DNA of 64,000 nucleotides. Origin: Acidobacteriota bacterium. GTDB lineage: Bacteria; Acidobacteriota; Vicinamibacteria; Vicinamibacterales; UBA2999. A program made the position numbers and the translations under genes. Position 1 is the stretch's first letter. The number at the start of each line of letters is the position of its first letter. Shown here piece after piece: positions 6,629 to 60,053 of the stretch. Location of the stretch: positions 2,861 through 66,860 of the forward strand of contig JAKFXY010000074.1 in the NCBI GenBank assembly GCA_021731165.1, read 5' to 3'. The notes below the pieces were generated by a model. The model saw only the letters and a program-made list of their open reading frames with translations, was not told the DNA's origin and ran no database searches.

Positions 6629-6697
6629 GGTTTGCGATCCTTGCCACGCTTGTCCTCCGAACGCGTCGCCTGTGTCGCGCGGTTCACAGCCACGTTC

Positions 6698-6757
6698 TAA
6701 CAACGGCGGCCGCGCCGGCTCCAGGCGCAATGAGGCAGCCGGCGCCGGATGTCAGCG
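6698..6757 (-). repeat. attC-like imperfect palindrome after DinB cassette (weak)
   Basis: Minus-strand GTTGTTA box at 6698-6704. The stem GCGCCGGCT / AGCCGGCGC has one unpaired G. No clear AAC box at the other end. Confidence 0.3.
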
Positions 6758-7237
6758 ACCTACGGCAGTCCGGATGCGCGCGAGGTGGTGCCAGCTGTGC
6801 CGAAGCGCGTGATCCTCGATGACGAACTGCGCGGTAACCGGGGCGCCGAAGCTCAGCGAGAACGGTGCCGCCCGATCCAGCTCTTCATCGCTGAAGGCGC
6901 GAACCGTTGCGGCCGCCTGGTGACTGTGCTTGCGCAACAAATCGAGCGCCTCCGCCTTCACGACCTTGGCGTGCTCGCGGGCGTGGCCGGCATTCAACTC
7001 GGCGACGACCTGCCAGGTCACATCGATGACCGCGTTCCCGCCGGCGACGGCGCGCGCCAGGTCGATCTCGATGGGGTAGACGAGTGCGACATGGTTCACG
7101 ATTTGGCCCACCGTCCGGCGGTCGGTGGGGGACGTTGGAGTTTCCCACTCAACGTCCGACAGCCCTTCCGCAAAGGCAGCCAGGCTGGCCGCACCGTCCT
7201 CGATGCGGGCGGCAAGTAATTCAGTGCGACGACTCAT
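6752..7237 (-). CDS. DinB-family (DinB_2 / MDMPI_N-like) metal-dependent protein
   Basis: 161 aa with conserved His positions (VNHVALV ... HALRHSWHHLARI), typical of the DinB four-helix bundle. Confidence 0.65.
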   Translation of the reverse strand: MSRRTELLAARIEDGAASLAAFAEGLSDVEWETPTSPTDRRTVGQIVNHVALVYPIEIDLARAVAGGNAVIDVTWQVVAELNAGHAREHAKVVKAEALDLLRKHSHQAAATVRAFSDEELDRAAPFSLSFGAPVTAQFVIEDHALRHSWHHLARIRTAVGR

Positions 7238-7315
7238 GCCATTGCTCCTCAGTGTCTGTGGCCGAATCTACTGCCAGCGTCGACGTGCTACATGACATGC
7301 CCCCGGATAAGTTGC

Positions 7316-7385
7316 GCCCAACGTCAGGCATCAGCCACGGCGTACCGACTCCAGATCGCGCCGTCGGCTGCAGGGCGTGTTCGGC
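7316..7385 (-). repeat. attC-like site A (after antitoxin/ParE cassette)
   Basis: Read on the minus strand: GCCGAAC ... GTTGGGC, where GTTGGGC is a perfect GTTRRRY. The imperfect stem has one extra C on the plus-strand 3' arm. It shares CGTCGGCTGCAG (7362-7373) with site B (8481-8492) at the same relative position. Confidence 0.55.
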
Positions 7386-7395
7386 GGCGCGTCGC

Positions 7396-7701
7396 CTATA
7401 AGATCGGCCCGGCGCCACGGCTCGAGTGCCACAACGCCAACACTTGAAGGACATCGCCAGTCACTCGGTAGTACAAGACGTAGCGAATTCGCGACAGCGT
7501 GACGCGTCGTACTCCGGCCAGCGTAGTCCTGCGTGCCCGCGTACCAAGTTCGGGTTGACCACGGAGCAGCTCGAGCGTGTGGTCGAGGTCCTCGAGCACA
7601 GCACCCGGTGCCCCCAGGCGATGCTGCGACCACCACGCAGCCGCCGCAAGGATGTGCTGCTGGGCCTGCTCGGTGATGTCGAGGCGTAGGGCACGGGTCA
7701 C
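7396..7701 (-). CDS. ParE/RelE-family type II toxin
   Basis: The C-terminal block RRVTLSRIRYVLYYRV...VLALWHSSRG is typical of ParE. The GTG start at 7701 overlaps the antitoxin stop (GTGA). Confidence 0.7.
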   Translation of the reverse strand: MTRALRLDITEQAQQHILAAAAWWSQHRLGAPGAVLEDLDHTLELLRGQPELGTRARRTTLAGVRRVTLSRIRYVLYYRVTGDVLQVLALWHSSRGAGPIL

Positions 7702-7919
7702 GCAAAGTGACGCAACCGCTCGCGCAGGGTCTCCCATGACACCACTTGGCCACGATCGGCCTGCGCGATGGCTTCAAGGAGCGCCCGTTCCTCGTCGACC
7801 GAAACTTCAAAGGTCTGCTCGTCGTCCCGCGCCACGACCGTGACGACCGAGCCCTCTGCCCACGGTTCGCCCTCGACGACGACCTTCCCTTCAACGATTC
7901 TGCCGGTGGCAACTCTCAT
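7698..7919 (-). CDS. putative antitoxin of the ParE module
   Basis: 73-aa acidic protein immediately upstream of, and translationally coupled to, the ParE-like gene. The family was not recognised beyond position and size. Confidence 0.5.
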   Translation of the reverse strand: MRVATGRIVEGKVVVEGEPWAEGSVVTVVARDDEQTFEVSVDEERALLEAIAQADRGQVVSWETLRERLRHFA

Positions 7920-7942
7920 GGATGGATCCTACACCCGGGGGA

Positions 7943-8008
7943 CCGGAACTGGCCCCGCGATAGCTCCTTGCGTTGATTCCGGGAGCTTCAGTCGGTCTGC
8001 GGTTCCTG
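7943..8008 (-). repeat. attC-like site C2 (after deleted DinB cassette)
   Basis: Plus strand: CCGGAAC ... GTTCCTG (boxes complementary at 6/7). Stem AGCTCC/GGAGCT plus imperfect outer pairing. The GTCGGTCTGCG next to the GTT box resembles GTCGGCTGCAG of sites A and B. The plus 3' arm is 2 nt longer. Confidence 0.45.
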
Positions 8009-8016
8009 TCCGCCTA

Positions 8017-8077
8017 GACAACGTCAGCGCTATCGCACACCGGCCGAGTGCTTCAATAACGCCTAGCTTTGTTGCGG
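8017..8077 (-). repeat. second, degenerate attC-like element overlapping the DinB pseudogene 3' end
   Basis: Minus strand: CCGCAAC ... CTGACGTTGTCT. It carries the 9-mer CAACGTCAG (plus, 8020-8028) also found in site A (7319-7327) and at 9699-9707. Stem pairing is poor. Confidence 0.3.
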
Positions 8078-8409
8078 AGCAAACTTGAACTCAAACCGCC
8101 CGCGTTCCTGGATCTGTTTCAGATGATGCCGCAAATGAACCAAGTAGTCTTCGACAAGAAAGCCCAAGCTGACCGCTGCACCCAAGCGTCTTGCTCGTAC
8201 CCAGGAAAGGAGCATTCTTTGGCCCGTTGAGCTCGGACGAATCGCTGGTGGTTATTGGCCGCCGAGTCAACCAGGTGACCAACGATTTCTTTAACGGACC
8301 ATACGTCAGGGCCGCGCTTCGAGGCCGCGACCGATTCATTGACCGTCCGGAGCTTCACCCCAGCCACGTCAATCACCCGGGTAAGTTCGTCGGCTAGTGA
8401 TTGAAGCAT
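8063..8409 (-). pseudogene. DinB-family gene with internal out-of-frame deletion
   Basis: The N-terminal frame (8409..) reads ...EIVGHLVDSAANNHQRFVRAQ...FPGYEQDAWV. The typical C-terminus LVEDYLVHLRHHLKQIQERG continues in another frame and ends at TAG 8063-8065. The roughly 60 aa normally found between these blocks are missing. Confidence 0.5.
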
Positions 8410-8431
8410 TGTGTTCGGAAGTGTGCGGCCA

Positions 8432-8505
8432 TATCAACGCTCGGCGCTCAGCCGCGAGCCGTCCGTCGTCGACCGCGGCTCGTCGGCTGCAGCGCCTTGT
8501 TAGAC
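8432..8505 (-). repeat. attC-like site B (after BrnT/BrnA cassette)
   Basis: Minus strand: GTCTAAC (perfect RYYYAAC) ... GTTGATA. Plus-strand arms are GGCGCTCAGCCGCGAGCC (8443-8460) and GGCTCG[T]CGGCTG[C]AGCGCC (8477-8496). They pair perfectly except for two extrahelical bases on the arm next to the R'' box. The brnA reading frame runs into the site. Confidence 0.6.
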
Positions 8506-8792
8506 CGCGTGTTGCCGATGGTCTCACGGGTCACACGGTCCGCCAGATACACCTTGAGCAAAGACTGGTACGGAACGTCACGCTTGTTCGCCAAGACCTT
8601 CAGATCGGACAAGAGCGCCGTCGGCAGTCGGAGCGAGATCGTCTCGGTCGAAGCCTTGAGATTCGGAAACACCACTTGGCGCGCGTTTGACCAGGTCACC
8701 ACGTCACCCGCATCGTGGGTTTCCCAGTATTCCCGCTCCGCATGCTCTGAGGCGAACGGCGGAACCACCTTAGCTGGCACTCGCTTGGCCAT
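8448..8792 (-). CDS. brnA: BrnA-family antitoxin (CopG/RHH-like)
   Basis: ...ISLRLPTALLSDLKVLANKRDVPYQSLLKVYLADRV matches the BrnA C-terminal RHH block. The ATG is preceded by GGAGGGG and overlaps the brnT 3' end. The C-terminal tail is encoded by the attC-like site. Confidence 0.7.
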   Translation of the reverse strand: MAKRVPAKVVPPFASEHAEREYWETHDAGDVVTWSNARQVVFPNLKASTETISLRLPTALLSDLKVLANKRDVPYQSLLKVYLADRVTRETIGNTRSNKALQPTSRGRRRTARG

Positions 8793-9099
8793 AACCCCTC
8801 CGCTCTCGCCGACTCATCGGCCTCACCGAGATCACCCGTAATAGCGAACCCCGAACAGTGAAGACCACTGTCAGCAGCCGCCCCGCGTCCGTTCGCCCGA
8901 ACGCGAACTGCCGGGATTCATTCTTGAACGGTGCCCCAGCTACCACGAGCGGGCGATTCAGAAAGACTTGCTCCGCTTCCGTCTGGCTGACCCGGTGACG
9001 CGTCCAGTTCTTCGACGCATTCCCCTCGTCCCATTGAAACCCCTCGATGGTCGGCAAGAACTCGGGACGAGATCCCACTGCAGGAGTATACGCCTGCAA
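8770..9099 (-). CDS. brnT: BrnT-family toxin (DUF497)
   Basis: FQWDEGNASKNWTRHRVSQTEAEQVF...VVFTVRGSLLRVISVRPMSRRER is the DUF497/BrnT signature. The start (TTG 9099 or a downstream GTG/TTG) is uncertain. Confidence 0.75.
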   Translation of the reverse strand: MQAYTPAVGSRPEFLPTIEGFQWDEGNASKNWTRHRVSQTEAEQVFLNRPLVVAGAPFKNESRQFAFGRTDAGRLLTVVFTVRGSLLRVISVRPMSRRERRGYGQASAS

Positions 9100-9150
9100 T
9101 ATACGCGACGCAACGAGTCGTAGCGACTCTGGAGTGCCGACCGATCAGCG

Positions 9151-9157
9151 GCCTAAC
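9151..9157 (-). other. attI-like core site GTTAGGC (minus strand)
   Basis: A perfect GTTRRRY heptamer lies between the intI remnant and the first cassette, about 50 nt upstream of brnT. Confidence 0.35.
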
Positions 9158-9200
9158 TACTATTCACCTGCAAGCGGCCGGCACGGGATTCGTCCCCGTA

Positions 9201-9224
9201 CGCTCGGTAATCCGGCACCGAGCG
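9201..9224. repeat. 24-nt hairpin, copy 1 (CGCTCGGTA-ATCCGGC-ACCGAGCG)
   Basis: 8-bp perfect stem CGCTCGGT/ACCGAGCG. Near-identical stem to the copy at 9309-9332. Confidence 0.6.
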
Positions 9225-9308
9225 CCCCGGTCATGACCCCATGTGCTTGATTCGGGGGGAGTTATAGATTCCTTGGCGGCAGCGCGTCAGCCAGGATATG
9301 CGCGTGGT

Positions 9309-9332
9309 CGCTCGGTAGCCGAATACCGAGCG
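9309..9332. repeat. 24-nt hairpin, copy 2 (CGCTCGGTA-GCCGAA-TACCGAGCG)
   Basis: Same stem as 9201-9224. It lies 17 nt downstream of the intI-remnant stop and could also act as its terminator. Confidence 0.6.
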
Positions 9333-9349
9333 GAAGAGCGGAACGATGC

Positions 9350-9612
9350 TCAGCCAAGCCCGTCAAAGGGACTGCGTACGCCCCGCCCACCTCGGTTGAG
9401 CACGTAGGTGTACACCATCGTCGTGCTGACGTCGCTGTGCCCCAGCAGTTCCTGAATCGTGCGGATGTCGCAACCGGCTTCGAGGAGGGGTGTCGCGAAT
9501 GAGTGTCTCAGGGTGTGACACGTCGCCGGCTTGGTCAGGCGGGCACGAAGTGCCGCATATGTATGGTGTGCCGCACCTGATCGAGGAGCTTCGGACGAAG
9601 AGGATCGGCCAT
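9350..9612 (-). pseudogene. intI: integron-integrase (IntI-type tyrosine recombinase) remnant with large internal deletion
   Basis: ATG 9612 gives [22 protein letters not shown], then a stop at 9535-9537. A different frame from about 9538 to 9350 reads [62 protein letters not shown]. Both ends match IntI N- and C-termini, and about 230 central codons are absent. Confidence 0.7.
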
Positions 9613-9822
9613 GCTGGGTCTAGGGCCGTTTCGCGAGCGAACACCGTGCCAGCGCCGCCGCGCCTGGATGACCGAATGAATCGCCAGATGGAGTCGTTCA
9701 ACGTCAGTACTTGTGCGATCCGCAGCCGCGCAGCCCATCGCGGAATCTTCCACGCCGAGGTATCGCGGAGTTCGCAGGGATAACTCACCGAGCGATGCTC
9801 CGACCTTCCGCTCTTGGGTTTA

Positions 9823-9850
9823 GGACTTGGGACTTGGGATCTGGGAATTG
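9823..9850 (+). repeat. 4 x 7-bp tandem repeat GGACTTG GGACTTG GGATCTG GGAATTG
   Basis: Read directly from the sequence. It ends 19 nt upstream of the nuoI ATG (9869). Confidence 0.7.
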
Positions 9851-9868
9851 ACCAGCTATGATCGAAGC

Positions 9869-10315
9869 ATGATTCGTCCGCTCCTCGTCGGCCTCGCCAC
9901 CACGTTCCGGCACATGTTCAGGAATAAGGTCTCGGTGAACTATCCGGATGAAAAGGTCCCGGTGTTTCCGAAGTACCGGGGCAAACAGGTGCTGATGCGT
10001 GACGAGAACGGGTTGGAGAAGTGCGTGGCGTGCGGTCTGTGCTCGGTGGCCTGTCCGGCCGACGCGATTTATCTCGAGGCCGCCGAGAACGACGGGACGG
10101 TCATGGCCGGCCCGCGGTACGCCAAGGTCTATCAGATTCACAAGACGCGGTGCATCTTCTGCGGCTACTGCGAGGAAGCATGTCCGGTCTCGGCCATTTT
10201 CATGGGGAAGGACTACGAGCTGGCCGTCTACAGCAAGGACGACTTCATCTGGGACAAGGCAGACTTGCTGGTCATGGCGCAGACAAACGCCAAGACCCCC
10301 GCGGCCACGCGCTAG
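9869..10315 (+). CDS. nuoI: NADH-quinone oxidoreductase subunit I-like 2x[4Fe-4S] protein
   Basis: MIRPLLVGLATTFRHMF...VNYPDEK N-terminus. Two CxxCxxCxxxCP motifs (CVACGLCSVACP, CIFCGYCEEACP). No other nuo genes in the window. Confidence 0.7.
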   Translation: MIRPLLVGLATTFRHMFRNKVSVNYPDEKVPVFPKYRGKQVLMRDENGLEKCVACGLCSVACPADAIYLEAAENDGTVMAGPRYAKVYQIHKTRCIFCGYCEEACPVSAIFMGKDYELAVYSKDDFIWDKADLLVMAQTNAKTPAATR

Positions 10316-56700: not shown

Positions 56701-59388
56701 ATGCTCAAACAGATACTTCTTGCCGCCGCATTGCTGGCTCCCGTCGCCGCGATCGCACAAACATCCCTGGGGTCCATCTCCGGACAGGTCACCGACGCCG
56801 GTACCGGCGCGCCGCTCGCCGGTGCCAGCATCACAGTGGAGGGGATGCCGCTCAGCGCGGCATCCGATCGCGCCGGCCGCTTCAGCCTCGTGAACGTCCC
56901 GACCGGAACACACACGCTCGTGATCACCTACCTCGGTCACGGTGACGAACGTGCGCAGGTGATGGTCGCCGAAGGAGCGACCCTCGCTGTCGAGGTGCGG
57001 CTGAACCGCATCGCCTACTCGGAGCTCGTGCAGGTGACCGGGGAGTCAATCGGGGAAGGGCAAGCACAGGCGCTCAATCAGCAGAAGACGGCGCCCAACA
57101 TCACCAACGTGGTGTCTGCCGATCAGATCGGCAGCTTTCCGGATCCGAACGCCGCCGAGGCCGCGTCGCGAATCCCTGGCGTGTCGATCGCGCGCGACCA
57201 GGGAGAGGGTCGCTACATCCTGATTCGGGGCACCGAGCCGCGCCTCAACTCGGTGATGATCGACGGCGAGCGGATCCCGTCGCCGGAGGATACCCGGCAA
57301 ATCATGCTCGATGCCGTTCCGGCGGACCAGCTCCAGAGCATCGAGTTGTCGAAGGCGGTGACGCCGGACATGGATGCGGACTCGATTGGCGGTGCCGTCA
57401 ATCTCATCACCAAGCAGGCCGTCGGCAGGCCGACGATGCTGTTCTCGCTCGCGGGCGGGTACAACCCGCTGCAACGCGAGTATGGCCAGGGTCAGTTCAC
57501 CGCGACAGTCGGCCGCCGCGTCGCGAACGGGCGGGTCGGTCTCTTGGCAGGAGCCAGCGGATCCTCGCTGCACCGGGGCTCCGAGAACTTCGAGGCGACC
57601 TATGACGCCGGGAACCTCGCGGACCTGCAGCTGCGCGACTACCAGATTGCGCGTGAGCGGTACGGCGTCAACGTGTCGTCCGATGCCCGCGTCGGCAGCG
57701 GGTCGCTGACATTCAAGAGCATCTTCAACGAGTTCAAGGACTACGAGGTCAACAACCGAGAGCGGTTCAGGCCGGGCAACAGCCGCATCGAGCACGTGCT
57801 CAAGAACCGGCATCAGACCGATCACATCAGGTCCGTGTCCGGCGCCGGCCAGCATCTGATGGGATCGGGGACCACGCTCGACTATCGCCTGGCCTGGGCG
57901 CATGCGCGCGAGGATCAGCCGGACCGCCTCGACACGATCTTCAGGCAGAGCCGCATCAACTTCTCGCCGAACGTGTCGGCGTCGTCCATCGATCCCGGGA
58001 ACATTCAGCCGAATCCCTCCGCGGACAATCCTGCGGCGGCCACGCTCAATGCCTGGGAGACGGAGATCTTCGAGTCCAACGATCGCGACATCACCGGGTC
58101 CTTCAACCTCCGTGTGCCGCTGTCGTCGGGCGCCCGGATCGCCAGGTTCCTGAAGGTCGGTGCGAAGGTGAAGGACAAGCGCAAGACCAACGAGTTCGCG
58201 GTGACCACGGCGTCGCCGGTGTCGCCGGTGCTCTTCCCGGAGCTCCAGGACACGGGTTTCGACAACTCCCGCTTCCTCAGTTTCTTCCCGGCCGTCTATC
58301 CGAAGTTCCCCGGCATCAAGGCCGACGCCTCGCGAGCGATGTTCAACGCCCTGCCCGCCTCGCGCGTCGTCCTCGATCACGAAGGGGACGCGGAGAACTA
58401 TGAGGCGACCGAGCGCCTCTTCGCGGGCTATGCCATGGCCGAGATCTACGTCGGCGACAAGCTGCTCGTGCTGCCAGGTATTCGCTACGAGTCCACGAAG
58501 GTTGACTACCTTGGCTATCAGGTGCTCTACGACGACGGCGGCGACTACGTGTCAACCCAGTCCGTCACGGGGGGCGATACCCACGGATTCCTCCTTCCAG
58601 GCTTTCACGTCAGGTACAGCATCGACCCTTCGACGAACCTGCGCCTGGCGTACACCAGGACCCTGGCGAGGCCGAACTACTACGACCTCGTGCCATACCA
58701 ACTGGTGTTTCAGGAGGACGGGGAGATCTCGCGCGGAAACTCGACGCTGAAGCCGACGACCTCGAGCAATGTCGATGTGCTGGTCGAGCACTACCTCCAG
58801 TCGGTGGGTGTTATCTCCGGTGGCGTGTTCTACAAGAGGCTGAACGACTACATCTTCCCGTTCCGATTCCGGGAGGCCGCGTTCGGCGATACTTTCCAGG
58901 TGACGCAGCCGCGCAATGGCGACGCGGCATCGTTGTGGGGAGCCGAGCTGGCGTTCCAGAATCAGCTCCGGTTTCTGCCACGCCCGTTCGACGGACTCGG
59001 CATCTACGCGAACCTCACGCTGACGCATTCCTCGGCCGAATTCCCCGATCGCGATCAGCGGTCCACGCTGCCAGGGCAATCTGCCCGCCTTGGCAACATC
59101 GCGCTGTGGTACGAGAAGGCGGGGTTCTCCGCGCGCTCGTCCTGGAACTTCCACGGAAAGTACGTTGACGCCGTGGGCGACTCGGCGGCGACCGACGTCT
59201 ACTACGACGACCATGTCCAGTGGGACCTGTCGTTCAGCCAGCGCCTCCTGCGGCAGGCACGGGTTTACGTGGACGTCCTGAATCTGACGAACGCGCCGCT
59301 GCGCTACTACGAGGGGACGTCGAACCGCCCGATCCAAGAGGAGTACTATCGATGGTGGGCGAGCGTTGGCGTGAAGCTCAGCTTCTAA
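56701..59388 (+). CDS. TonB-dependent receptor with CarboxypepD_reg N-domain
   Basis: Signal peptide, a GQVTDAGTGAPLAGASITVEG regulatory-like domain, a plug, and a barrel ending ...VGVKLSF. Confidence 0.9.
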   Translation: MLKQILLAAALLAPVAAIAQTSLGSISGQVTDAGTGAPLAGASITVEGMPLSAASDRAGRFSLVNVPTGTHTLVITYLGHGDERAQVMVAEGATLAVEVRLNRIAYSELVQVTGESIGEGQAQALNQQKTAPNITNVVSADQIGSFPDPNAAEAASRIPGVSIARDQGEGRYILIRGTEPRLNSVMIDGERIPSPEDTRQIMLDAVPADQLQSIELSKAVTPDMDADSIGGAVNLITKQAVGRPTMLFSLAGGYNPLQREYGQGQFTATVGRRVANGRVGLLAGASGSSLHRGSENFEATYDAGNLADLQLRDYQIARERYGVNVSSDARVGSGSLTFKSIFNEFKDYEVNNRERFRPGNSRIEHVLKNRHQTDHIRSVSGAGQHLMGSGTTLDYRLAWAHAREDQPDRLDTIFRQSRINFSPNVSASSIDPGNIQPNPSADNPAAATLNAWETEIFESNDRDITGSFNLRVPLSSGARIARFLKVGAKVKDKRKTNEFAVTTASPVSPVLFPELQDTGFDNSRFLSFFPAVYPKFPGIKADASRAMFNALPASRVVLDHEGDAENYEATERLFAGYAMAEIYVGDKLLVLPGIRYESTKVDYLGYQVLYDDGGDYVSTQSVTGGDTHGFLLPGFHVRYSIDPSTNLRLAYTRTLARPNYYDLVPYQLVFQEDGEISRGNSTLKPTTSSNVDVLVEHYLQSVGVISGGVFYKRLNDYIFPFRFREAAFGDTFQVTQPRNGDAASLWGAELAFQNQLRFLPRPFDGLGIYANLTLTHSSAEFPDRDQRSTLPGQSARLGNIALWYEKAGFSARSSWNFHGKYVDAVGDSAATDVYYDDHVQWDLSFSQRLLRQARVYVDVLNLTNAPLRYYEGTSNRPIQEEYYRWWASVGVKLSF

Positions 59389-59402
59389 AGATTACGCCGA
59401 CG

Positions 59403-59440
59403 TAGCGGCGCCGTGGCGAGTCCTTCGCACGGCGCCGCTA
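59403..59440 (+). terminator. strong hairpin after the TonB receptor gene
   Basis: TAGCGGCGCCGTG-(12 nt)-CACGGCGCCGCTA, a 13-bp perfect stem starting 15 nt after the stop. No U-tract. Confidence 0.5.
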
Positions 59441-59447
59441 TCGTCGG

Positions 59448-60053
59448 GTGGTGCCTCAGACATTCCTCATTTCGCTCATCGTTGCCCTTGCCGTGGTGGT
59501 GCCGGCCGCGGGTGCCGCCACGGATACGTCCCCGTACCGGCGCGTTCGCCAGATGGATCTCGTCCTCGACGCGCTCGTTCACTCACTCGCTGACAGCTCA
59601 CCGACCTTGCGCGCCTCCATCGACGCGCTGGAGCGATCGGACCTGATCGTGCACGTGGTGCGGAGACGGCAGCCGGCCGGCATCATCGGCTCGACCGTAT
59701 TCGTCGTCGCGGCTGGCGGCGTCAGGTATCTCCGGATCGCCATCAGCCCTGACGTCGTGGGGGCAGCGGCGGTGTCGCTGCTCGGGCACGAGCTCCATCA
59801 CGCGGTCGAGATTGCGGCCGATCCCTCCGTGATCGACGCGGCGAGCCTCAGCGCCCTCTACGAGCGCATCGGAGAGCACTGCGGCTCGACGTGGCGGAAG
59901 GCGTACGACAGTCCGGCGGCTCGTGATGCCGGGCGGGATGTCGCCCTGGAGCTAAGGCGTGGACGGGTAGCCGTGGCCGCTGAATCGCGGCGCGTCCGAC
60001 ACGCGGGATTTACGCCGCCGCCGTCACCTCGACATCACGCGAGCGTAGAGTGA
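59448..60053 (+). CDS. secreted hypothetical protein with HExxH motif
   Basis: Signal peptide. LLGHELHHAVE. No family recognised. Confidence 0.4.
   Translation: MVPQTFLISLIVALAVVVPAAGAATDTSPYRRVRQMDLVLDALVHSLADSSPTLRASIDALERSDLIVHVVRRRQPAGIIGSTVFVVAAGGVRYLRIAISPDVVGAAAVSLLGHELHHAVEIAADPSVIDAASLSALYERIGEHCGSTWRKAYDSPAARDAGRDVALELRRGRVAVAAESRRVRHAGFTPPPSPRHHASVE

What the first reader, a model, noticed from the sequence alone, without database searches (positions are those of the whole stretch)
7316..8505. attC-like sites A and B are homologous and carry extrahelical bases on the canonical arm
The plus-strand right arms align: A is CGCCGTCGGCTGCAGGGCGT-GTTCGGC (7359-7385) and B is GCTCGTCGGCTGCAGCGCCTT-GTTAGAC (8478-8505). 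They share the 12-mer CGTCGGCTGCAG. The left arms share TCAGCC. In B, the arms 8443-8460 and 8477-8496 pair perfectly except for two unpaired bases (T and C), both on the arm adjacent to the R'' box of the plus strand. In A, one unpaired C sits at the equivalent place. C2 (7943-8008) has the variant GTCGGTCTGCG and a right arm 2 nt longer. Extrahelical bases on the R''/L'' arm of the bottom strand are the known polarity determinant of attC sites. Here they predict minus-strand cassettes, which matches the ORF orientation.
Basis: partly seen in the sequence, partly recalled or inferred. Interest (0 to 1): 0.7.

Follow-up and report, generated by a model that had tools for sequence, protein, structure and literature searches.

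The report
Decayed chromosomal integron with attC sites
The two repeats are genuine integron cassette recombination sites (attC) in a small, decaying gene-cassette array of a soil Vicinamibacterales (Acidobacteriota) genome whose integrase gene is mostly deleted; this is an ordinary example of a well-known system.

Summary
Sites A (7316-7385) and B (8432-8505) are real and are attC sites.

- **Site B is textbook.** It has a 20-bp stem and bulged bases C8490 and T8483 at positions 16 and 23 from the 3' end, separated by 6 bp. It folds far better than shuffles (z -4.05).
- **Site A is slightly degraded** (z -2.35).
- **Both belong to a cross-phylum attC class.** An exact pattern found 118 or more 8-kb stretches, mostly in soil, sediment and freshwater MAGs. 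A covariance model built from that class scores B at 66 bits and A at 47.7 bits on +, but only 20 and 12 bits on -. Nothing else in the 64 kb scores significantly.
- **An integrase remnant lies upstream on the - strand.** About 230 codons are deleted (9612-9350). An attI-like site with crossover GTTAGGC follows at 9152-9158.
- **There are three cassettes:** BrnT/BrnA, a frameshifted DinB_2 fragment, and a ParDE-like pair.
- **C2 (7943-8008) is not an attC.** It lies in the leader of the ParDE-like cassette. The real but dead site is 8016-8077.

Verdict: a new member of a known kind, of low interest.

The parts
9535..9612 (-). Integron-integrase (intI) remnant, N-terminal piece: ATG at 9612, [22 protein letters not shown], then out of frame to a stop at 9535-9537
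   Evidence: Three-frame translation. It matches the N-terminal ..PPKLLDRVREAIRVRHY.. of the intact IntI in L117.
9350..9556 (-). intI remnant, C-terminal 67 codons (..[48 protein letters not shown]). The deletion junction lies at about 9542-9558. About 230 codons are missing between the two pieces, which are in different frames.
   Evidence: TIGR02249 integron integrase positions 251-315 of 315, E 1.4e-32, 113 bits, against 70 bits for XerD. Pfam Phage_integrase. 74-79% DNA identity to intI genes that sit next to attC arrays.
9151..9172 (-). attI-like simple site GCAGGTGAATAGTAGTTAGGCC (read on the - strand). The crossover G|TTAGGC is at 9152-9158, and cassette 1 starts at 9157.
   Evidence: Alignment of the DNA downstream of the intI stop in the 10 co-oriented relatives. 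Eight of them (L050, L051, L055, L060, L101, L108, L113, L117) show a conserved (C)CTAAT/CTAC-N5-6-GTTAGGC about 190-260 nt after the stop.
8438..9157 (-). Cassette 1 (720 bp): BrnT toxin (9078/9099-8770) and BrnA/CopG antitoxin (8792-8448). The BrnA ORF runs into attC B.
   Evidence: Pfam BrnT_toxin 1.4e-21 and CopG_antitoxin 4.2e-26. Homologous cassettes with 82-89% DNA identity occur in L049, L050 and L090, and their homology starts at the R' crossover, 8435-8442. This is the last of 5 cassettes in L050 but the first here.
8432..8505 (+). attC B; the + strand is the bottom strand. R' is TATCAAC (8432-8438) and R'' is GTTAGAC (8499-8505). The 20-bp stem pairs 8443-8462 with 8475-8496. Extrahelical bases are C8490 (position 16) and T8483 (position 23).
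   Evidence: Model R1: 66 bits, E 1e-16 on +, against 20 bits on -. Fold z -4.05. The positions and the 6-bp spacing match the canonical description (PMC5027507).
8064..8409 (-). Cassette 2 cargo: a DinB_2 pseudogene. The N-terminal ~80 codons are in one frame and the C-terminal ..FLVEDYLVHLRHHLKQI.. is in another.
   Evidence: Pfam DinB_2 hit covers only profile positions 16-66 of 128. Three-frame translation.
8016..8077 (+). Degenerate attC of cassette 2: AGACAAC-GTCA-GCGCT...AGC-TTT-GTTGCGG. The outer boxes fit the family, but the inner stem is lost.
   Evidence: The outer parts match the R1 consensus by eye. No fold: z +0.83. The boundary is supported by the lengths of homologous ParDE-like cassettes and by the shared GGCGGACA at the cassette start.
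7943..8008 (-). It is not an attC. It is part of the 100-nt leader (8021-7920) of the ParDE-like cassette and contains the palindrome AGCTCC..GGAGCT.
   Evidence: R1 gives 0.6 bits for 7943-7982 and nothing for 7943-8008. Fold z -1.0 and -0.55. Homologous cassettes have leaders of similar length that also contain palindromes.
7322..8021 (-). Cassette 3 (700 bp): leader, antitoxin (7919-7698), ParE-family toxin (7701/7737-7396) and attC A.
   Evidence: Pfam ParE_toxin 2.3e-09. 23 metagenome loci encode relatives. In at least 13 of them an R1 attC follows ParE within 12-20 nt in the same polarity.
7316..7385 (+). attC A; the + strand is the bottom strand. R' is GCCCAAC (7316-7322) and R'' is GTTCGGC (7379-7385). 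Bulge-equivalent bases are C7371 and T7364/C7365. A G-to-A change at 7337 shifts the second bulge by 1 nt, and there are two mismatches in the basal helix.
   Evidence: R1: 47.7 bits, E 2.6e-11 on +, against 12 bits on -. Fold z -2.35. Homologous ParDE-like cassettes start with TTCGGC, the complement of this R''.
6752..7237 (-). DinB_2 family gene (161 aa). It is probably the first gene beyond the array and not a cassette.
   Evidence: No significant attC lies downstream: 6656-6736 scores 10.5 bits, E 2.3, and the 6697-6756 hairpin has z -0.8. Close homologs in L144 and L145 have no R1-type attC nearby.

Best explanation
The region 7316-9612 is the remnant of a sedentary chromosomal integron in a Vicinamibacterales (Acidobacteriota) genome. 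Read on the minus strand, its order is:
1. an integron-integrase gene with about 230 internal codons deleted and the two ends out of frame;
2. an attI-like site with crossover G|TTAGGC;
3. three cassettes.

The three cassettes are BrnT/BrnA ending in attC B, a frameshifted DinB_2 fragment ending in an attC that can no longer fold, and a ParDE-like pair ending in attC A.

**Mechanism (inferred from the established integron mechanism, not shown here).** When the + strand of A or B becomes single-stranded, it folds into a hairpin. The AAC of R' lies on the 5' arm and two extrahelical bases lie on the 3' arm. An IntI dimer binds this bottom-strand hairpin, guided by the extrahelical bases, and cleaves between A and C of AAC. 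It exchanges that strand with attI or with another attC, so cassettes insert in one orientation, here with their genes on the minus strand.

The local integrase is dead and the middle attC is destroyed. The array is therefore frozen unless an integrase encoded elsewhere acts in trans. The two toxin-antitoxin cassettes probably help the remnant persist.
For: **Anatomy of the sites**
- B has R boxes, an unpaired spacer, a 20-bp stem and bulges at positions 16 and 23 separated by 6 bp. This is what PMC5027507 describes, except that position 16 is C instead of the usual G.

**Family**
- An exact 23-base pattern derived from A and B hit 118 or more 8-kb stretches across many phyla. I estimate only about 1-2 chance hits.
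- 119 of 139 of the hits that could be extended carry an AAC 7-13 nt upstream that the pattern did not require.
- Stem pairs outside the pattern show 30-34 double changes among 76 sequences.
- An independent sample of 33 sites, collected through ParE protein homology, is 96% paired in the long helix. 13 of its 17 pairs show compensatory changes. The bulges are T in 27 of 33 and C in 29 of 33.

**Strand**
- Model R1 scores B at 66 bits on + against 20 bits on -, and A at 47.7 against 12.

**Context**
- The intI C-terminus matches TIGR02249 at E 1.4e-32, and an N-terminal piece is present.
- A conserved attI-like motif is present.
- In 15 of 15 relatives with IntI, the integrase is at the upstream end of the array.

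**Cassette mobility**
- The BrnTA cassette with its attC recurs at 82-89% identity in other MAGs and at a different array position.
- ParDE-like cassettes of 707-712 bp recur, each with an attC in the same polarity.

**Not dispersed**
- No other significant site occurs in the 64 kb.
Against: - No recombination was observed; the mechanism is inferred by homology.
- Model R1 was built from sequences found with a pattern taken from A and B, so their high scores are partly circular.
- A has mismatches in the basal helix and a shifted bulge. B's R' (TATCAAC) pairs poorly with its R''. That is expected, because in an array R' comes from the neighbouring cassette.
- IntegronFinder's own attC model could not be run.
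- The distal end of the array and the status of DinB_2 (6752-7237) are not settled.
Confidence: 0.9

Rival explanations
1. A and B are copies of a generic repetitive extragenic palindrome (a REP/BIME-like element) with no link to integrons.
For: They are GC-rich imperfect palindromes in short intergenic gaps. They share a 12-mer.
Against: - Only two copies occur in 64 kb, 1.1 kb apart on the same strand.
- Elsewhere the motif occurs in arrays spaced by cassette-sized ORFs and next to intI.
- Conserved AAC/GTT boxes and bulges at fixed positions are present.
- An intI remnant and an attI lie adjacent.
Confidence: 0.02
2. The hairpins are primarily transcription terminators, or mRNA-stabilising stem-loops, for the toxin-antitoxin operons.
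For: Each follows the last gene of an operon. Stable stems are present.
Against: - No T-run is present, and the terminator scan found 0 sites in 7250-9700.
- The asymmetry between strands, the conserved R boxes and the bulges are not explained by termination.
- The same site follows unrelated genes in many phyla.
- A secondary terminator effect is not excluded.
Confidence: 0.03
3. The conservation of B reflects protein coding, because the BrnA ORF reads through it, and not a DNA structure.
For: ORF 8448-8792 covers B, and the C-terminal tail NKALQPTSR..RRRTARG is similar in L050.
Against: - A and most family members are non-coding and keep the same motif.
- The changes are compensatory in the stem rather than synonymous.
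- The Pfam CopG_antitoxin match ends at residue 85 of 114, before the attC.
Confidence: 0.03
4. The array is still active. Cassettes at A and B are mobilised in trans by an intact integrase elsewhere in the genome, so this is a working satellite array (CALIN) and not a fossil.
For: B is structurally intact and A nearly so. Half of all CALINs lie in genomes that encode IntI (PMC4889954).
Against: No second intI occurs in the 64 kb. The middle attC is dead and one cargo gene is a pseudogene, which points to decay. The rest of the genome was not available.
Confidence: 0.25

Closest known systems
Sedentary chromosomal integron that has lost its integrase (a CALIN with a neighbouring intI pseudogene, in the sense of IntegronFinder; PMC4889954)
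   Same: It has at least 2 attC sites on one strand within 4 kb, cassette-sized ORFs, toxin-antitoxin cassettes, and a recognisable IntI C-terminal pseudogene less than 10 kb away. Cury et al. found the last feature near 15 of 279 CALINs.
   Different: Here the attI and both ends of intI survive, so the origin by internal deletion of a complete integron is directly visible. One of the three attC sites has also decayed.
attC sites of class 1 mobile-integron cassettes (for example attC of aadA genes), as dissected by Nivina et al. 2016 (PMC5027507)
   Same: R'/R'' boxes RYYYAAC/GTTRRRY, an unpaired central spacer, extrahelical bases at positions 16 and 23 separated by a 6-bp stem, a conserved T at position 23, and a variable terminal loop. 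From my own memory, the aadA1 bottom strand ..GCGGCG-T-CGGCTT-G-AAC..GTTAGAC has the same layout.
   Different: Position 16 is C and not the usual G: 29 of 33 in the independent sample. The inner box CAGCCG/CGGCTG and the flanking GC-rich stem are much more conserved than in the mobile-integron sites.
[quoted passage not shown]
   Same: The intI remnant is on the same strand as the cassettes, with attI downstream of its 3' end. The same arrangement occurs in 10 Acidobacteriota or Rokubacteria relatives.
   Different: The same attC class also occurs next to divergently oriented intI in Proteobacteria, in Verrucomicrobiota and in one Acidobacteriota locus. The phylogenetic position of this IntI was not determined.
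Taxon- and environment-specific attC classes (Ghaly et al. 2021, PMC8352920)
   Same: That work built covariance models of attCs for 11 taxa, Acidobacteria among them, and found that attCs cluster by environment more than by phylogeny. The cross-phylum spread seen here fits that picture.
   Different: I could not compare my model with theirs, so whether this class equals their Acidobacteria model is untested.

Membership tests
Integron attC site | Inverse core boxes: 5'-RYYYAAC-3' (R') and 5'-GTTRRRY-3' (R'') at the two ends of the bottom strand | tested here: met
   A: GCCCAAC ... GTTCGGC (one off the consensus). B: TATCAAC ... GTTAGAC. AAC and GTT are invariant. R' is supplied by the neighbouring cassette, so imperfect pairing is expected.
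Integron attC site | Imperfect hairpin of 57-141 nt with an unpaired central spacer and a variable terminal structure | tested here: met
   A is 70 nt and B is 74 nt. Fold z is -2.35 for A and -4.05 for B. In B the spacer is 4-5 nt on the 5' arm and 2-3 nt on the 3' arm.
Integron attC site | Extrahelical bases on the arm opposite the AAC of the bottom strand, at about positions 16 and 23/24, separated by a 6-bp stem | tested here: met
   B: C8490 is position 16 and T8483 is position 23, with 6 bp between them. A: equivalents lie at positions 15 and 21/22 because the spacer is 1 nt shorter and a G-to-A change shifts the bulge. Position 16 is C instead of the usual G.
Integron attC site | Occurs in same-strand clusters no more than 4 kb apart, separated by cassette ORFs | tested here: met
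   A and B lie 1.1 kb apart on the same strand, with cassettes of 416-720 bp. Relatives form arrays of up to 9 sites.
Integron attC site | Detected by the curated attC covariance model of IntegronFinder | not testable with these tools
   That model is not available here, and Rfam gave no match in the window. A model built here scores both sites highly, but it is partly circular.
Integron attC site | The bottom strand is bound and recombined by an integron integrase | not testable with these tools
   This needs a conjugation/recombination assay or EMSA.
Complete integron | Intact intI gene next to attI and at least one attC | tested here: not met
   Only about 22 N-terminal and 67 C-terminal codons remain, in different frames.
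CALIN (cluster of attC sites lacking an integron integrase) | [quoted passage not shown] | tested here: met
   There are two significant attC sites and intI is a deletion remnant.
REP/BIME-type dispersed repeat | Many copies dispersed in intergenic regions genome-wide, unrelated to cassettes | tested here: not met
   There are 2 copies in 64 kb.
Intrinsic terminator | GC-rich stem followed by a T-run | tested here: not met
   No terminator-like sites in 7250-9700.

The most novel reading that the evidence does not exclude
The motif defines one very widely shared attC class of soil, sediment and freshwater bacteria. Its marks are position-16 C, the CAGCCG/CGGCTG box and a GC-rich stem. It serves integrons with both co-oriented and divergent integrases in Acidobacteriota, Nitrospirota, Gammaproteobacteria, Planctomycetota, Verrucomicrobiota and others. 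Cassettes such as BrnTA and ParDE would then circulate between phyla, and even integrase-less remnants like this one would remain donors in trans.
Probability: 0.4. Interest if true: 0.35.

Novelty: new member of a known kind. Interest (0 to 1): 0.2.

Why it matters
This is a clean, fully dissected example of how a chromosomal integron decays. The steps visible here are an internal deletion of intI, loss of one attC stem, a frameshifted cargo gene, and survival of the toxin-antitoxin cassettes. It shows directly one route by which clusters of attC sites without an integrase arise.

It also shows that extrahelical-base polarity alone predicted cassette orientation correctly from raw sequence.

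Nothing here changes what is known about integrons. The cross-phylum spread of this attC class and the co-oriented integrases of the Acidobacteriota are minor additions to existing surveys.

Tried and rejected
- **RNA scans.** Rfam gave no match at gathering thresholds and ARAGORN found no tRNA, so there is no tRNA-linked island.
- **Source contig.** Exact-protein look-ups of NuoI and the MetH-like protein found nothing on record. The locus was found through BrnA and DinB_2 in MAG GCA_040079955.1. A source names that MAG's DinB protein as Vicinamibacterales.
- **C2 as an attC.** Rejected.
- **A collapsed attC at 8054-8077.** Model R1 gave only 5.5 bits. I now read it as the R'' half of the degenerate site 8016-8077.
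- **A terminal attC after DinB_2.** The candidates are 6695-6756 and 6656-6736. Neither is significant: 10.5 bits, E 2.3, fold z -0.8.
- **DinB_2 (6752-7237) as a cassette.** Homologs in L144 and L145 have different neighbours but no R1 attC, so this is not supported.
- **Borderline hit 59389-59454.** It is a perfect intergenic palindrome without R boxes or bulges, so it is not an attC.
- **Promoter scan.** There was one weak hit that overlaps B's R', no better than shuffles.
Full report
**1. Observation**

- The 12-mer CGTCGGCTGCAG occurs exactly twice in the 64-kb window, at 7362-7373 and 8481-8492, both on the + strand.
- Both left arms carry TCAGCC.
- Folded as single-stranded DNA, B (8432-8505, + strand) forms a 20-bp stem. 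Its only unpaired bases are T8483 and C8490, on the 3' arm next to GTTAGAC. The energy is -25.5 kcal/mol, z -4.05, and 0 of 200 shuffles fold as well.
- A (7316-7385) forms a shorter stem with C7365 bulged on the same arm. Here z is -2.35 and 5 of 200 shuffles fold as well.

**2. Gene map (all on the - strand)**

| Feature | Coordinates | Evidence |
|---|---|---|
| BrnT | 9078/9099-8770 | |
| BrnA/CopG antitoxin (runs into B) | 8792-8448 | |
| DinB_2 fragment, N- and C-terminal parts in different frames | 8409-8064 | |
| Small antitoxin | 7919-7698 | |
| ParE-family toxin | 7701/7737-7396 | |
| DinB_2 | 7237-6752 | |
| YdeI/OmdA gene | ~6628-6068 | |

Between BrnT and the flanking nuoI-like gene (9827-10315, +) lie two pieces of an integron-integrase gene on the - strand.
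- The first piece starts at ATG 9612 and encodes [22 protein letters not shown]. This aligns with the N-terminus of intact relatives (..PPKLLDRVREAIRVRHY.., L117).
- The second piece is a 67-codon C-terminus that ends at the stop at 9350-9352. It matches TIGR02249 (integron integrase) positions 251-315 of 315 at E 1.4e-32 and 113 bits, against 70 bits for XerD.
- The two pieces are in different frames and join at about 9542-9558, so roughly 230 codons are missing.

**3. attI**

I aligned the DNA downstream of the intI stop in the 10 co-oriented relatives. Eight of them show a conserved (C)CTAAT/CTAC-N5-6-GTTAGGC about 190-260 nt after the stop. The window has GGTGAATAGTAGTTAGGCC at the matching place (+ coordinates 9151-9172). 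This is the architecture of an attI simple site. It places the first cassette boundary at G|TTAGGC (9158|9157).

**4. The family**

- A 23-base exact pattern taken from A and B (TCAGCC-N15-45-CGTCGGCTGCAG-N-GC-N1-3-GTT) hit 118 or more 8-kb stretches in one genome per species. I estimate 1-2 hits by chance.
- The hosts span many groups: Acidobacteriota (Vicinamibacterales, Thermoanaerobaculia, Bryobacterales, Terriglobia), Gammaproteobacteria, Nitrospirota, Nitrospinota, Gemmatimonadota, Verrucomicrobiota, Planctomycetota, Rokubacteria, Acidimicrobiia, Cyanobacteria and Desulfobacterota.
- 119 of the 139 hits that could be extended carry an AAC 7-13 nt upstream that the pattern did not require. 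They end in GTTRRRY. A few hits in Bradyrhizobium, Oceaniovalibus and similar genomes are coding-sequence coincidences.
- Several loci hold arrays of 6-9 sites spaced by 0.4-2 kb.
- The consensus is GCCTAACG-n3-6-GCGCT-CAGCCG-CG[variable hairpin]CG-T-CGGCTG-C-AGCGC-n2-3-GTTAGGC.

**5. Structure and covariation**

- On 76 non-redundant sites (alignment A1), 88.5% of cells pair, against 26-51% when the partners are slid. The four stem pairs just inside the fixed motif, which my pattern did not constrain, carry 30-34 double changes among 76 sequences.
- A second sample does not depend on the DNA pattern: 33 sites next to ParE homologs, fetched by protein similarity from metagenomes. In that sample the long helix is 96% paired and 13 of 17 pairs show compensatory changes, including the CAGCCG/CGGCTG box (GAGCCG/CGGCTC, CACCCG/CGGGTG and others). 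The first bulge is T in 27 of 33 and the second is C in 29 of 33.

**6. Scan of the window**

- The covariance model R1 built on A1, run with filters off over both strands, gives B 66 bits (E 1e-16) and A 47.7 bits (E 2.6e-11) on +.
- The same sites score 20.2 and 12 bits on -.
- The next hit is a perfect intergenic palindrome at 59389-59454 (16 bits, E 0.047). It has no R boxes or bulges.
- The element is therefore not dispersed in this window.
- Caveat: R1 descends from a pattern taken from A and B, so their absolute scores are partly circular. The strand asymmetry, the features outside the pattern and the independent sample are not circular.

**7. Polarity**

- According to Nivina et al. 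(PMC5027507), the bottom strand has the AAC in R' and the extrahelical bases on the opposite arm. Position 16 is usually G and position 23/24 is a conserved T, with a 6-bp stem between them.
- Counting from the 3' end of B's + strand, C8490 is position 16 and T8483 is position 23, with 6 bp between. The + strand is therefore the bottom strand, and the cassettes read on the - strand.
- Three independent checks agree: the ORF orientation; the intI remnant and attI at the upstream end on the - strand; and 15 of 15 related loci with IntI, in which the integrase lies upstream of the array on the strand defined this way.
- A is a slightly decayed copy. Its right-hand spacer is 1 nt shorter. A G-to-A change at 7337 moves the bulge from T7364 to C7365. 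Two basal pairs are mismatched.

**8. Cassettes are mobile units**

- The BrnTA cassette, including its attC, recurs at 82-89% DNA identity in L050 (Vicinamibacterales), L090 and L104 (Acidobacteriota) and L049 (a MAG labelled Nitrospirota, so binning caveats apply). The homology starts at the R' crossover.
- In L050 it is the last of five cassettes downstream of an intI. Here it is the first.
- ParDE-like relatives occur in 23 metagenome loci. Where the downstream sequence is present, an R1 attC follows ParE within 12-20 nt in the same polarity.

**9. C2 is not an attC**

- R1 gives 0.6 bits for 7943-7982 and nothing for 7943-8008.
- In L129, L132 and L134 the distance from the end of the upstream attC to the end of the cassette's own attC is 707-712 bp. 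In the window this predicts a boundary near 8023-8028.
- At 8016-8022 lies AGACAAC followed by GTCA-GCGCT, which is the R'-spacer-L' start of the family. At 8064-8077 lies AGC-TTT-GTTGCGG, which is the L''-spacer-R'' end.
- The 33 nt between them no longer pair (fold z +0.83).
- The homologous cassettes start G|TTCGGCGGA.., and TTCGGC is exactly the complement of attC A's R''. The window retains GGCGGACA a few bases inside this boundary.
- C2 therefore lies in the 100-nt leader of the ParDE-like cassette. Homologous leaders are of similar length and also contain palindromes.
- I infer, without testing, that these palindromes are promoter or operator elements. TA cassettes are known to carry their own promoters (PMC13108822).

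**10. End of the array**

- No significant attC follows DinB_2 (6752-7237). The region 6656-6736 scores 10.5 bits, E 2.3, and the 6697-6756 hairpin has z -0.8.
- Relatives with 83-91% identity are very common. In L144 and L145 they have different neighbours and no R1 attC.
- I take attC A to be the last site and DinB_2 to be flanking DNA, with moderate confidence.

**11. Comparison with what is known**

- Operationally this is a CALIN with a neighbouring intI pseudogene. Cury et al. saw that situation near 15 of 279 CALINs and proposed it as one origin of CALINs (PMC4889954).
- The co-orientation of intI and cassettes corresponds to the inverted integron-integrase arrangement, which the same paper describes as paraphyletic.
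- Co-orientation is the rule in the Acidobacteriota and Rokubacteria relatives seen here (10 loci). The same attC class sits beside divergent intI in Alkalilimnicola, Rubrivivax, a gammaproteobacterial locus, a Verrucomicrobiota locus and one Acidobacteriota locus.
- Acidobacteria attCs have already been modelled, and attCs are reported to cluster by environment more than by phylogeny (PMC8352920).
- The only mild departure from the textbook site is C instead of G at position 16.

**12. Verdict**

The locus is a decayed chromosomal integron, a new member of a known kind. Interest is low (0.2).

Noticed in passing
window 59389-59454: A perfect GC-rich palindrome (GACGTAGCGGCGCCGTG...CACGGCGCCGCTATCGTC) fills the 60-nt gap between ORFs 56701-59388 and 59448-60053. 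It has no T-run, no AAC/GTT boxes and no bulges. It was the best non-attC hit of the model (16 bits, E 0.047).
   Followed up: partly
L050 88-229 and 5494-5635: In a Vicinamibacterales relative, a 142-bp direct repeat (91.5% identity) brackets the intI gene plus its five cassettes. The repeat covers the 5' part of a histidine-phosphatase-like gene. It looks as if the whole integron sits inside a partial gene duplication.
   Followed up: partly
window 8448-8505 (also L050 5347-5404): The BrnA antitoxin ORF reads through attC B, so its last ~19 residues (NKALQPTSRGRRRTARG) are encoded by the recombination site. The same tail is present in the L050 homolog, although the Pfam domain ends at residue 85.
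   Followed up: partly
window 6752-7237; L144 and L145 4001-4486: This 161-aa DinB_2 protein has more than 100 cluster representatives at 83-91% identity, all the same length. In two long contigs it has entirely different neighbours, and homology ends within about 35 nt of the ORF. No attC of this class is nearby. It behaves like a mobile unit of unknown kind.
   Followed up: partly
L050, L051, L055, L060, L092, L097, L101, L108, L113, L117 versus L039, L058, L067, L093, L106: The same attC class lies beside an integrase co-oriented with the cassettes in Acidobacteriota and Rokubacteria loci. It lies beside a divergently oriented integrase in Proteobacteria, in Verrucomicrobiota and in one Acidobacteriota locus.
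   Followed up: partly
window 6707-6745: A 9-bp perfect stem (GCGCCGGCT / AGCCGGCGC) with a 16-nt loop lies just downstream of DinB_2, with TTCTAAC on one side. Its left arm is conserved in L145 but its right arm is not. It is not significant as an attC or as a fold.
   Followed up: partly
L068 1526-1657; protein hits: Another Acidobacteriota locus keeps only a C-terminal intI fragment next to an attC. The best database matches to the window's IntI C-terminus are almost all proteins of 65-118 aa. Truncated integron integrases may be common in these soils, or the effect may be an artefact of short contigs.
   Followed up: no
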